64,000 nt of DNA from an uncultured Chlamydiae bacterium (GCA_963828125.1 CAWHDP010000002.1:416001-480000), one strand, 5' to 3'; positions 32,920 through 33,376 are shown, counted from the stretch's first letter. The notes: generated by a model from the sequence alone, not told the origin. Made by a program: numbers and translations.

Positions 32920-32948
32920 TAGACATTAGGGTAAAAATTTGATATAAT
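32920..32948 (+). promoter_or_regulatory. Sigma66-type promoter of the Phe/Tyr operon
   Basis: TAGACA(32920-25)-N17-TATAAT(32943-48), with an A-rich tract upstream; uORF ATG 7 nt downstream. Confidence 0.75.
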
Positions 32949-32955
32949 TACGGAC

Positions 32956-33036
32956 ATGAAGAAGCAGTTATTTACACAAACCCAGTTCGGCGCTCGATCT
33001 GTATATGCTGCTGCTTATTTCTATTTTGGCGCTTAA
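32956..33036 (+). CDS. Putative Phe/Tyr attenuator leader peptide (26 aa; absent from ORF track)
   Basis: MKKQLFTQTQFGARSVYAAAYFYFGA: 4 Phe + 3 Tyr, including a YFYF run; directly upstream of chorismate mutase/prephenate dehydratase genes. Confidence 0.75.
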   Translation: MKKQLFTQTQFGARSVYAAAYFYFGA

Positions 33037-33112
33037 GCGCGCCATTCAACCTTTTCACTATCAGATCCGATTTAAATCCAATAAAAAAAGCTCAAAATAG
33101 GAAGAGTGTTGT

Positions 33113-33376
33113 ATGTTATTGAATCAATTGCGAAGTCAGATGGATGCGATTACGGCTGATCTGGTCGCTCTTTTAGCTAAAAGAACTGAGATCGCCCGAG
33201 AGATCGCCCTGATTAAAAAACGGGAAGGGTTCCCTATTTTTGATCCAGATCGTGAGAATGAGATTAAATCTCAGGTGCGCGAGCGGGCCTTAATGGGGGG
33301 GATTAGCCCTGTAATGATGGAAGAGATCATTCAGATCATTCTCGACTATACTCGAGTTGAGCAAGGCGCTGTATGA
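33113..33376 (+). CDS. Chorismate mutase (AroQ type II)
   Basis: LNQLRSQMDAI..LVALLAKR..IA..IALIK...PIFDPDRE. Confidence 0.9.
   Translation: MLLNQLRSQMDAITADLVALLAKRTEIAREIALIKKREGFPIFDPDRENEIKSQVRERALMGGISPVMMEEIIQIILDYTRVEQGAV

What the first reader, a model, noticed from the sequence alone, without database searches (positions are those of the whole stretch)
32920..33115. Candidate leaderless Phe/Tyr leader-peptide attenuator controlling a chlamydial Phe/Tyr biosynthesis operon
Seen: promoter TAGACA-N17-TATAAT, then an ATG 7 nt later with no Shine-Dalgarno, opening a 26-codon ORF MKKQLFTQTQFGARSVYAAAYFYFGA with 7 Phe/Tyr codons, four of them consecutive (YFYF). It ends 76 nt before chorismate mutase. 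Bases 33018-33029 (spanning the F-Y-F codons) can form a 12-bp helix with two G-U pairs with 33092-33103, which covers most of the AGGAAG ribosome-binding site. A competing hairpin TGGCGC/GCGCCA (33027-33044) spans the stop codon and is followed by a C/U-rich, G-poor tract. Established: pheL-type leader peptides sense charged tRNA by ribosome stalling. Inference: the uORF is translated leaderless, and stalling at Tyr/Phe codons frees the RBS (translational attenuation) or blocks Rho access. Sensing both amino acids suits chorismate mutase, which feeds both branches. I know of no described Phe/Tyr attenuator in Chlamydiae but could not search the literature.
Basis: partly seen in the sequence, partly recalled or inferred. 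Interest (0 to 1): 0.88.

Follow-up and report, generated by a model that had tools for sequence, protein, structure and literature searches.

The report
Phe/Tyr leader-peptide attenuator in Chlamydiota
A tiny gene packed with phenylalanine and tyrosine codons sits in front of the operon that makes those amino acids, recurs in many environmental chlamydiae, and most likely lets the ribosome switch the operon on when they run short.

Summary
The promoter, the ATG 7 nt after it, the 26-codon F/Y-rich uORF, the 12-bp anti-SD helix and the stop-codon hairpin are all at the stated coordinates.

It is not chance. I found the same uORF in 36 other genomes of five families of the phylum, always ahead of the aromatic operon. 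The N-terminus varies. The ending ...FYFG(A/V) and the GC hairpin are near-invariant (37 of 37).

In the window's family the F/Y codons pair with the Shine-Dalgarno of the first gene in 14 of 14 genomes. No terminator is present.

Best reading: a ribosome-read Phe/Tyr sensor acting by translational attenuation, possibly with Rho polarity.

Caveats:
- In this genome folding keeps the SD paired by a second, lineage-specific helix even with a stalled ribosome.
- The transcription start and any response to starvation are untested.
- Outside the family the F/Y:SD pairing is mostly absent.

Close precedents exist: C. glutamicum aroR, mycobacterial leaderless Cys sORFs, and the actinobacterial LEU element. 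This scan has also noted Phe/Tyr leaders in other phyla. I file it as a new member of a known kind, undescribed for Chlamydiota in my searches and absent from Rfam.

The parts
32920..32948 (+). Sigma-70-type promoter: -35 TAGACA (32920-32925), 17-nt spacer, extended -10 TG (32940-32941) and TATAAT (32943-32948)
   Evidence: 11 of 12 matches with TG. By eye, similar TGnTATAAT-type promoters stand upstream of the uORF in the relatives.
32956..33036 (+). Leader-peptide uORF of 26 codons plus TAA: MKKQLFTQTQFGARSVYAAAYFYFGA. The ATG lies 7 nt after the -10 hexamer, so the start is probably leaderless.
   Evidence: Found in 37 genomes. Only 22 of 15,896 small ORFs in this genome have 4 or more consecutive F/Y.
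33016..33029 (+). Regulatory Tyr-Phe-Tyr-Phe codons (33016-33027). Bases 33018-33029 form the anti-Shine-Dalgarno strand.
   Evidence: One search gives the sequences of both strands. RNAduplex gives -19.7 to -20.3 kcal/mol, reached by 1 of 500 shuffles.
33027..33044 (+). GC hairpin UGGCGC-UUAAGC-GCGCCA. It overlaps the last Phe, Gly and Ala codons, and the stop codon is in the loop.
   Evidence: Present in 37 of 37 instances, with the stop in the loop in 28 of 37. Compensatory changes G-C to U-A (G282, G388) and C-G to U-A (G011, G418) are read.
33042..33062 (+). Second, lineage-specific anti-SD segment. It pairs with 33096-33116, which covers the SD and the start codon.
   Evidence: It is in the MFE fold. 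Duplex -15.1 kcal/mol, reached by 6 of 300 shuffles. A comparable pairing is found only in G261 among the 12 other genomes tested.
33058..33068 (+). Conserved single-stranded motif CUAUCAGAUCC, of unknown function
   Evidence: CTAYCAGA(T) is invariant in 13 of 13 leaders, 16-17 nt after the hairpin. No partner was found. The 9-mer occurs 30 times in the genome, about what chance gives.
33092..33104 (+). Shine-Dalgarno AGGAAG (33099-33104) of chorismate mutase, with the flanking AAAAUA that pairs with the F/Y codons
   Evidence: The same AAAAUAGGAA block precedes DAHP synthase in G011.
33113..33376 (+). Chorismate mutase type II, the first regulated gene
   Evidence: PF01817, E 4.1e-19
33373..34137 (+). 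Prephenate dehydratase with an ACT domain
   Evidence: PF00800, E 2.3e-55; PF01842
34109..35218 (+). Class I/II aminotransferase, the last gene of the operon
   Evidence: PF00155, E 3.7e-58

Best explanation
This is a ribosome-read sensor of Phe and Tyr supply.

**Proposed mechanism.**
1. A strong promoter starts the mRNA at or within a few bases of the uORF's AUG.
2. A ribosome translates the short leader and reaches Tyr-Phe-Tyr-Phe codons just before a GC hairpin that holds the stop codon.
3. When charged tRNA-Phe and tRNA-Tyr are plentiful, the ribosome finishes and leaves. The freed UUUCUAUUUUGG tract then pairs with the AAAAUAGGAA of the first gene's ribosome-binding site, so chorismate mutase, prephenate dehydratase and the aminotransferase are not translated. 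The untranslated, G-poor RNA may in addition be cut short by Rho.
4. When either amino acid is short, the ribosome stalls on the F/Y codons and masks the anti-SD strand. The ribosome-binding site stays open.

**What is shown.** The sequence features, their conservation, the predicted pairing and the absence of a terminator.

**What is inferred.** The transcription start, translation of the uORF, the stalling, the direction of regulation and any part played by Rho.

**History of this locus.** In this genome the DAHP synthase gene that follows the leader in relatives is missing, and the leader now drives chorismate mutase directly.
For: **Conservation of the uORF.**
- It stands upstream of the aromatic operon in 5 of 5 close relatives.
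- It matches a strict pattern in 12 of 103 genomes of the family and 8 of 401 of a phylum sample. The reversed control pattern gave 0 and 1 hits.
- It is in 24 of 39 further prephenate-dehydratase loci in other families.
- In all, 31 of the 50 PF00800-positive genomes of the phylum sample carry it.

**Signs of translation.**
- N-termini differ while the aromatic cluster and its frame are kept.
- A 1-nt shift before the hairpin in G346, G126 and G217 is matched by a shorter loop, so the stop stays in frame (...YFWR*).

**The F/Y:SD duplex.**
- It is -13.4 to -21.2 kcal/mol in 13 of 13 genomes. In 12 of 13 it is reached by at most 8 of 500 dinucleotide shuffles; in G012 by 32 of 500.
- G388 gives -20.8 kcal/mol, reached by 0 of 300 shuffles.
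- Only 17 of 949 comparisons with non-cognate start windows are as strong.
- The helix appears in the MFE fold in 8 of 9 leaders.
- Masking a stalled ribosome raises SD accessibility in the relatives from 0.00-0.41 to 0.14-0.64.

**Other support.**
- There is no terminator-like site between the uORF and the gene.
- The leader's SD and ATG were kept exactly when DAHP synthase was lost.
- The mechanism has tested precedents. One is the mycobacterial Cys sORFs (10.1101/834739; passages read). The other is aroR (review PMC11802643; passages read).
Against: **In the window itself.**
- The free-leader fold pairs the SD with 33042-33062, not with the F/Y tract: P(SD pairs with the F/Y tract) is 0.00.
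- Masking a ribosome on the F/Y codons leaves the SD paired: unpaired probability goes from 0.11 to 0.09-0.10.
- F/Y:SD dominates (P 0.88) only if the first 45 nt are removed.

**Across the alignment.** RNAalifold on the MAFFT alignment recovers only the 4-bp hairpin core and no covariation for the long-range helix, because its register shifts between lineages.

**Outside the family.** The F/Y:SD duplex reaches the 5% level of shuffles in only 4 of the 21 non-f1 leaders tested. It cannot therefore be the universal mechanism of the conserved core.

**Leaderless start.** By eye, the arrangement holds in about 12 of 36 assessable leaders. Leaderless mRNAs are rare in Chlamydia: 3 and 5 genes in two transcriptome papers (passages read).

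**No experimental data.** There are no expression data, no mapped start site and no physiological data.
Confidence: 0.7

Rival explanations
1. Rho-dependent transcription attenuation is the main output. After the leader ribosome is released, Rho loads on the G-poor, C-containing spacer and stops transcription. Stalling, or the translation of the first gene that follows from it, prevents this. SD sequestration would then be secondary.
For: - No intrinsic terminator is present.
- The spacers of the 13 leaders hold 156 C against 59 G.
- Spacers in other families are strikingly C-rich and G-poor, for example in G181 and G011.
- The conserved core persists in families where F/Y:SD pairing is not found.
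Against: - In the window the spacer is mainly A/T-rich. A C-minus-G excess of 8 in 57 nt is reached by 12% of random genome windows.
- I found no RNA structure that would hide a Rho loading site on stalling.
- A ribosome stalled on the F/Y codons would not cover the spacer beyond the hairpin (inference from footprint size).
Confidence: 0.15
2. The conserved element is a structured RNA read by a trans factor: a protein, a small RNA or a metabolite. The hairpin and the CUAYCAGAU motif would be its site, and the open reading frame would be incidental or secondary.
For: - The hairpin and the motif are more conserved than a hungry-codon sensor needs.
- The motif is single-stranded in the predicted folds and has no conserved partner.
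Against: - The reading frame, the start codon and the in-frame stop are maintained in 37 of 37 leaders through indels, including a compensated 1-nt shift.
- The number and order of F/Y codons vary while their enrichment is kept.
- No Rfam family matches.
- The motif is not enriched elsewhere in the genome.
Confidence: 0.08
3. The nascent peptide ...FYFG(A/V) is an arrest peptide that senses free aromatic amino acid in the ribosome, as TnaC senses tryptophan. It would not be a hungry-codon sensor.
For: - The C-terminal residues and the adjacent stop codon are near-invariant over five families.
Against: - The invariant residues are encoded by the hairpin's 5' arm, which by itself explains their conservation. 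The stem also covaries.
- In 9 of 37 leaders the frame runs 4-7 codons past the hairpin.
- Arrest induced by abundant amino acid would expose the SD and give the wrong sign for a biosynthetic operon (inference).
Confidence: 0.04
4. It is a chance ORF in an AT-rich intergenic region with no function.
For: None beyond the short length.
Against: - 0.0009 such ORFs are expected per 200 nt.
- The ORF is conserved in 36 other genomes.
Confidence: 0.01

Closest known systems
Polycysteine leaderless short-ORF attenuators of mycobacteria (bioRxiv 10.1101/834739; abstract and passages read)
   Same: - A short ORF starts at the 5' end of the mRNA.
- The regulatory codon tract sits at the 3' end of the sORF and is predicted to pair with the region holding the SD of the downstream gene.
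- A stalled ribosome blocks that structure.
- No transcription terminator is involved.
- Polarity on downstream genes is considered.
   Different: - It senses Cys, not Phe/Tyr.
- It belongs to Actinobacteria, and there is no sequence relation.
- The mycobacterial case was tested by mutation and reporters; this one was not.
- Here a conserved GC hairpin with the stop codon in its loop and a conserved downstream motif are added.
- The leaderless start is not universal among the chlamydial leaders.
aroR leader peptide upstream of aroF (DAHP synthase) in Corynebacterium glutamicum (Neshat et al. 2014, as summarised in review PMC11802643, and PMC7356990; passages read; original paper not seen)
   Same: - A short leader peptide containing Phe-Tyr-Phe stands ahead of the DAHP synthase operon.
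- Expression rises when ribosomes stall at the aromatic codons.
- In the relatives of this window the leader also precedes DAHP synthase.
   Different: - The review describes aroR as transcription attenuation that responds to Phe but not Tyr.
- Here there is no terminator and the F/Y codons pair with the SD.
- The phylum is different.
- I did not compare sequences because I had no aroR sequence from a tool.
LEU element upstream of leuA in Actinobacteria (PMC1262725; passages read)
   Same: [quoted passage not shown]
   Different: - It uses Leu codons.
- It has a pseudoknotted core.
- Its mechanism was unresolved in that paper.
- There is no relation in sequence.
pheL-pheA attenuator of gamma-proteobacteria (Rfam Phe_leader; PMC3082878, abstract seen in the listing)
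   Same: A leader peptide with aromatic codons ahead of the chorismate mutase / prephenate dehydratase gene, read by the ribosome.
   Different: - pheL carries runs of Phe only and acts through an intrinsic terminator (own knowledge for the terminator).
- No Rfam family, Phe_leader included, matches this window or 17 related loci.

Membership tests
Leader-peptide (ribosome-mediated) attenuators, general class | A short upstream ORF enriched in codons for the end product of the operon it precedes | tested here: met
   7 F/Y in 26 codons, YFYF at codons 21-24, ahead of CM-PDT-aminotransferase. Rare in the genome: 22 of 15,896 small ORFs.
Leader-peptide (ribosome-mediated) attenuators, general class | The uORF and its regulatory codons are conserved in relatives while the rest of the peptide drifts | tested here: met
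   37 genomes in 5 families, with variable N-termini and a conserved aromatic cluster
Leader-peptide (ribosome-mediated) attenuators, general class | The regulatory codons take part in an RNA structure that decides downstream expression | tested here: met
   The F/Y:SD duplex is found in 14 of 14 family members and is stronger than shuffles and than non-cognate starts. In the window itself it competes with a second helix. All of this is computational.
Leader-peptide (ribosome-mediated) attenuators, general class | Expression responds to the charging of the cognate tRNA | not testable with these tools
   No RNA run is listed for this DNA, and the organism is known only from metagenome assembly.
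Classical transcription attenuators (trpL/pheL type) | An intrinsic terminator (GC hairpin plus U tract) between the leader and the first gene, alternating with an antiterminator | tested here: not met
   No terminator-like site lies between 33037 and 33112. The hairpin at 33027-33044 is followed by AUUCAACC, not a U tract.
Rfam Phe_leader and all other Rfam 15 families | A covariance-model match at or near the gathering score | tested here: not met
   With E up to 10, no hit overlaps 32920-33115. There are 0 gathering-level hits in 17 related loci.
Leaderless short-ORF translational attenuators (mycobacterial Cys type) | The transcript begins at the start codon of the sORF | tested here: inconclusive
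   The ATG lies 7 nt after a near-consensus extended -10 hexamer. By eye, the distance is 6-10 nt in 9 of 14 family members and 22-37 nt in most others. No start site has been mapped.
Leaderless short-ORF translational attenuators (mycobacterial Cys type) | The codon tract at the 3' end of the sORF pairs with the SD of the next gene, and there is no terminator | tested here: met
Rho-dependent leader attenuators (tnaC / mgtL type; features recalled from own knowledge) | A C-rich, G-poor unstructured Rho loading site after the leader ORF whose access depends on the ribosome | tested here: inconclusive
   The spacer is G-poor: 4 G in 57 nt, and 156 C against 59 G over 13 leaders. The C excess in the window is not unusual, being reached by 12% of genome windows.

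The most novel reading that the evidence does not exclude
The core is kept almost base for base over five families: ...F-Y-F-G-A/V, a GC hairpin that overlaps the last Phe codon and usually holds the stop codon in its loop, and then a single-stranded CUAYCAGAU / ACAUCC motif at a fixed distance. That is more than a hungry-codon sensor needs. It also persists where the F/Y codons do not pair with the SD. It may therefore be a distinct, terminator-less chlamydial attenuator class. In it the hairpin would act as a polymerase pause or synchronisation element melted by the leader ribosome, and the motif would be read by a trans factor, either Rho or an unknown RNA-binding protein. Different expression platforms would be bolted on in different families.
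Probability: 0.2. Interest if true: 0.7.

Novelty: new member of a known kind. Interest (0 to 1): 0.5.

Why it matters
- **Few known regulators.** To my knowledge, Chlamydiota have few known regulators and almost no described cis-regulatory RNAs. [quoted passage not shown]
- **A concrete, testable control.** This would be a ribosome-read control of aromatic amino-acid synthesis in the environmental members that still make Phe and Tyr. Prephenate dehydratase is present in 50 of 400 sampled genomes.
- **Wider reach of the mechanism.** It extends the pairing of regulatory codons with the SD, tested so far in mycobacteria, to an unrelated phylum and to other amino acids.
- **A marker for annotation.** The leader is a compact marker, absent from Rfam, for annotating these operons.
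- **An evolutionary snapshot.** The leader with its SD and ATG was kept when the first gene of the operon was lost.

Tried and rejected
- **Rfam.** Nothing was found in the window or in 17 related loci.
- **RNAalifold on a MAFFT alignment of 13 leaders.** It gave only the 4-pair hairpin core, with no covariation reported for the long helix, because the register shifts. I did not build a structural alignment or a covariance model.
- **Genome contigs pattern scan with widened gaps.** All but two of its loci lacked the uORF, and four further loci passed my aromatic filter but did not look like the leader (L093, L106, L120, L139). The real ones were L057 and L141. The scan was wasted and could not be repeated.
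- **Sequencing runs.** No RNA holder is listed. Read laying was therefore not used, and the transcription start stayed unchecked.
- **CUAYCAGAU as a regulon motif.** There are 30 copies of the 9-mer in the genome, about what chance gives.
- **CUAYCAGAU region as a conserved second anti-SD.** It is significant only in G000 and G261 of 13 leaders.
- **Other leaderless leader peptides in this genome.** A loose screen listed 37 small ORFs, none convincing, and its thresholds missed the known leader. It says little.
- **A leader ahead of the second DAHP synthase homologue.** That gene lies in a trp/aro cluster, and I did not inspect its upstream region in detail.
- **A sigma-54 promoter reading of TGGCGC-N5-GCGC.** I rejected it by eye on spacing and because the stem covaries.
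- **Earlier notes of this scan.** Nothing was found by place or by sequence.
- **Not used.** The metagenome-contig scan, structure prediction, complex prediction and the large protein searches. They would not bear on a 26-codon leader.

Full report
**1. The observation**

- TAGACA (32920-32925), a 17-nt spacer, TG (32940-32941) and TATAAT (32943-32948) form the only 11-of-12 promoter-like site with an extended -10 in 31500-35500.
- The ATG at 32956 lies 7 nt after the -10 hexamer. It opens MKKQLFTQTQFGARSVYAAAYFYFGA, with stop TAA at 33034-33036.
- 76 nt further on starts an operon:
  - chorismate mutase (33113-33376, PF01817);
  - prephenate dehydratase (33373-34137, PF00800 plus ACT);
  - a class I/II aminotransferase (34109-35218).
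- The 12-bp helix 33018-33029 / 33092-33103, with two G-U pairs, is as described, and so is the hairpin 33027-33044 with the stop codon in its loop.
- Small ORFs of this kind are rare. 22 of 15,896 ATG-ORFs of 15-50 codons in the genome hold four consecutive F/Y, or 0.0009 expected per 200 nt.

**2. Relatives**

*First relatives.* The prephenate dehydratase was found in 8 of 41 genomes searched, the window's own included. In the five close relatives the operon is DAHP synthase, chorismate mutase, prephenate dehydratase and aminotransferase. A uORF of the same kind stands upstream of DAHP synthase in all five.

*Pattern searches.* I took a strict pattern from these leaders: TTTGGCG, 3-8 nt, CGCC, 8-30 nt, CTAYCAGAT. 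It matched 8 of 401 genomes of a phylum sample, with no hit of the reversed control. A slightly loosened form of it (gaps 3-9 and 5-35 nt, without the last T) gave:
- 12 of 103 genomes of the window's family, with two extra coding-region hits and one control hit;
- 1 of 129 genomes of a second family.

This gave 13 leaders.

*Search by gene.* PF00800 is present in 50 of 400 genomes of the phylum sample. In the upstream DNA of 39 further loci, 24 hold a uORF with an aromatic cluster ending ...FYFG(A/V), or ...YFWR in three.

*Totals.*
- 37 leaders in five families.
- 31 of the 50 PF00800-positive genomes carry one.
- 15 loci were examined without a find, several of them at contig ends.
- 4 loci were not examined or were cut off.

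*Taxon.* The phylum label Chlamydiota is an inference. A public record titled as an uncultured Chlamydiae bacterium holds the same chance match as a genome of the window's family. The order also includes a family of genomes of about 1.0-1.3 Mb.

**3. Signs that the uORF is translated**

- N-termini differ freely (MKKQLF..., MNKQQQ..., MSKNAR..., MDTQDR...), mostly with Lys at position 2 or 3. The aromatic cluster and its frame are kept.
- ORF lengths run from 26 to 37 codons among the 13 leaders.
- In G346, G126 and G217 one extra U before GGCGC is matched by a shorter loop. The frame then reads ...F-W-R-stop, and the stop codon is still in the hairpin loop.
- The GC hairpin overlapping the last Phe codon is predicted in 37 of 37 leaders, and the stop lies in its loop in 28 of 37.
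- By my reading, the stem shows compensatory changes: G-C to U-A at the fourth pair in G282 and G388, and C-G to U-A at the fifth pair in G011 and G418.

**4. The expression platform in the window's family**

*Strength of the pairing.* In each of the 13 leaders the F/Y codon tract pairs with the stretch that holds the SD of the first gene.
- The duplex is -13.4 to -21.2 kcal/mol.
- In 12 of 13 it is reached by at most 8 of 500 dinucleotide shuffles of the SD window; in G012 by 32 of 500.
- G388, of the same family, gives -20.8 kcal/mol, reached by 0 of 300 shuffles.
- Against 73 start windows of other ORFs in the same loci, 17 of 949 comparisons are as strong as the cognate one.

*Shifting register.* The register differs between lineages:
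- UUUCUAUUUU with AAAAUAGGAA;
- CUAUUUCUUCUA with UAGAGGAAAUAG;
- AGCUAUUCCUUUU with AAAAGGAAUAGUU.

This is why RNAalifold on a plain alignment sees only the hairpin.

*Folds.* The helix is in the MFE fold of 8 of 9 leaders folded. With a ribosome masked on the aromatic codons, the mean unpaired probability of the SD rises in the relatives from 0.00-0.41 to 0.14-0.64. There is no terminator-like site between uORF and gene.

**5. The window itself is a derived and awkward case**

- The sequence up to the ATG aligns with the leader-to-DAHP-synthase junction of G011. From the ATG onward it aligns with G011's chorismate mutase. The DAHP synthase gene is therefore missing, and the leader's SD and ATG now serve chorismate mutase.
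- A 50%-identical DAHP synthase homologue lies elsewhere, beside trpA and an aroD/E-like gene. Those two names are read from their N-terminal sequences, not from a family search.
- tyrA abuts the leader's promoter in G011, G012 and G010. In the window it lies at 27913-28635, with about 4.2 kb of other genes in between.
- Folding of the whole leader pairs the SD with 33042-33062 and pairs the F/Y tract with the 5' part of the uORF (-33.1 kcal/mol).
- With a stalled ribosome masked, the SD stays paired: 0.11 becomes 0.09-0.10.
- The F/Y:SD duplex is the stronger of the two on its own: -19.7 against -14.4 kcal/mol. It dominates if the first 45 nt are taken out (P 0.88).
- The second helix is significant only here (6 of 300 shuffles) and in G261 (0 of 300) among the 13 leaders. 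It is lineage-specific.
- Whether it damps or locks the switch cannot be told from folding.

**6. Other families**

Spacers range from 40 to 207 nt. The F/Y:SD duplex reaches the 5% level of shuffles in only 4 of the 21 non-f1 leaders tested: G299, G181, G066 and G366. One start codon (G401) was misassigned by my script. The conserved core, meaning the aromatic codons plus the hairpin, is therefore older than the SD-pairing platform. Its universal role is open. Spacers are G-poor, with 156 C against 59 G in the 13 leaders, which leaves room for Rho.

**7. What remains unexplained**

- CUAYCAGAU is invariant in the 13 leaders, 16-17 nt after the hairpin, with variants elsewhere.
- It has no conserved partner.
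- It is not enriched in the genome.

**8. Comparison with what is known**

- Mechanistically the closest tested system is the mycobacterial polycysteine leaderless sORF. Its Cys tract pairs with the SD region of the next gene, and stalled ribosomes block that structure (10.1101/834739; abstract and passages).
- The actinobacterial LEU element has the same codon-run-to-SD stem (PMC1262725; passages).
- A Phe-Tyr-Phe leader ahead of DAHP synthase is known in C. glutamicum as aroR (review PMC11802643 and PMC7356990; passages; original paper not seen).
- Classical pheL differs: no Rfam match here and no terminator.
- In Chlamydia the published case is Trp-dependent attenuation of trpRBA through YtgR (PMC7755916; listing and abstract only).
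- Leaderless mRNAs are few in Chlamydia (PMC2817459 and PMC3333780; passages).
- My searches for a Phe/Tyr leader in Chlamydiae found none. The library lacks most subscription journals.
- Earlier notes of this scan describe Phe/Tyr leader attenuators in Chloroflexota, Acidobacteriota, Marinimicrobia, other bacterial phyla and an Asgard archaeon. They are unchecked by me. They show that the kind is widespread, and they gave me the aroR lead.

**9. Verdict**

- This is a genuine, conserved Phe/Tyr leader peptide. I put confidence at about 0.7 that it is a ribosome-read attenuator, and lower for each mechanistic detail.
- It is a new member of a known kind, new for the phylum and not catalogued.
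- It has two unexplained conserved features.
- It is ambiguous in this particular genome.
- Interest is moderate.

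Noticed in passing
window 33085-33140, compared with L009:6238-6312 and L009:7075-7170: The DAHP synthase gene that follows the leader in every relative is missing here. 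The leader's SD and ATG are joined exactly to codon 2 of chorismate mutase.
   Followed up: yes
window 27913-32804: tyrA (27913-28635) abuts the leader's promoter in G011, G012 and G010. Here about 4.2 kb separate them. The stretch holds an ORF with no family (28711-29892), a leucine-rich-repeat protein (30149-31522) and, on the minus strand, a Legionella-type major outer membrane protein homologue (31578-32804).
   Followed up: partly
G000:C2:770705-774460 (L157): A second DAHP synthase homologue, 50% identical to the operon type of G011, lies in a cluster with trpA and an aroD/aroE-like gene. I did not inspect its upstream region for a leader.
   Followed up: partly
L207 and L211 (family f26): These leaders end ...YYFWR. 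They carry three GGCGC/GCGCC-type segments: the 5' arm, a second UGGCG about 15 nt on, and a GCGCCAG about 70 nt further. These allow mutually exclusive hairpins, a more classical attenuator layout.
   Followed up: no
L189, L192, L194-L197 (family f7, spacers of about 100-190 nt): There is an extra hairpin in the spacer with apparent covariation (CUGC/GCAG against CCGC/GCGG). It overlaps a second possible hairpin. The 5' UTR also holds a UUGGCG or UUGCG copy that could compete for the 3' arm of the conserved hairpin.
   Followed up: no
window 33222-33244: A terminator-like site (GGGAAGGGUUCCC followed by UAUUUUUGAU) lies inside the chorismate mutase gene. The number of such sites in the region is at chance level (6 against 4.5 expected). 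By eye the U tract is absent at the same place in G011.
   Followed up: partly
L212 and L213 (family f23, G095 and G088): Here the first gene after the leader is not DAHP synthase. It is a 316-aa protein beginning MSPMPFAYFKGK..., which I did not identify.
   Followed up: no
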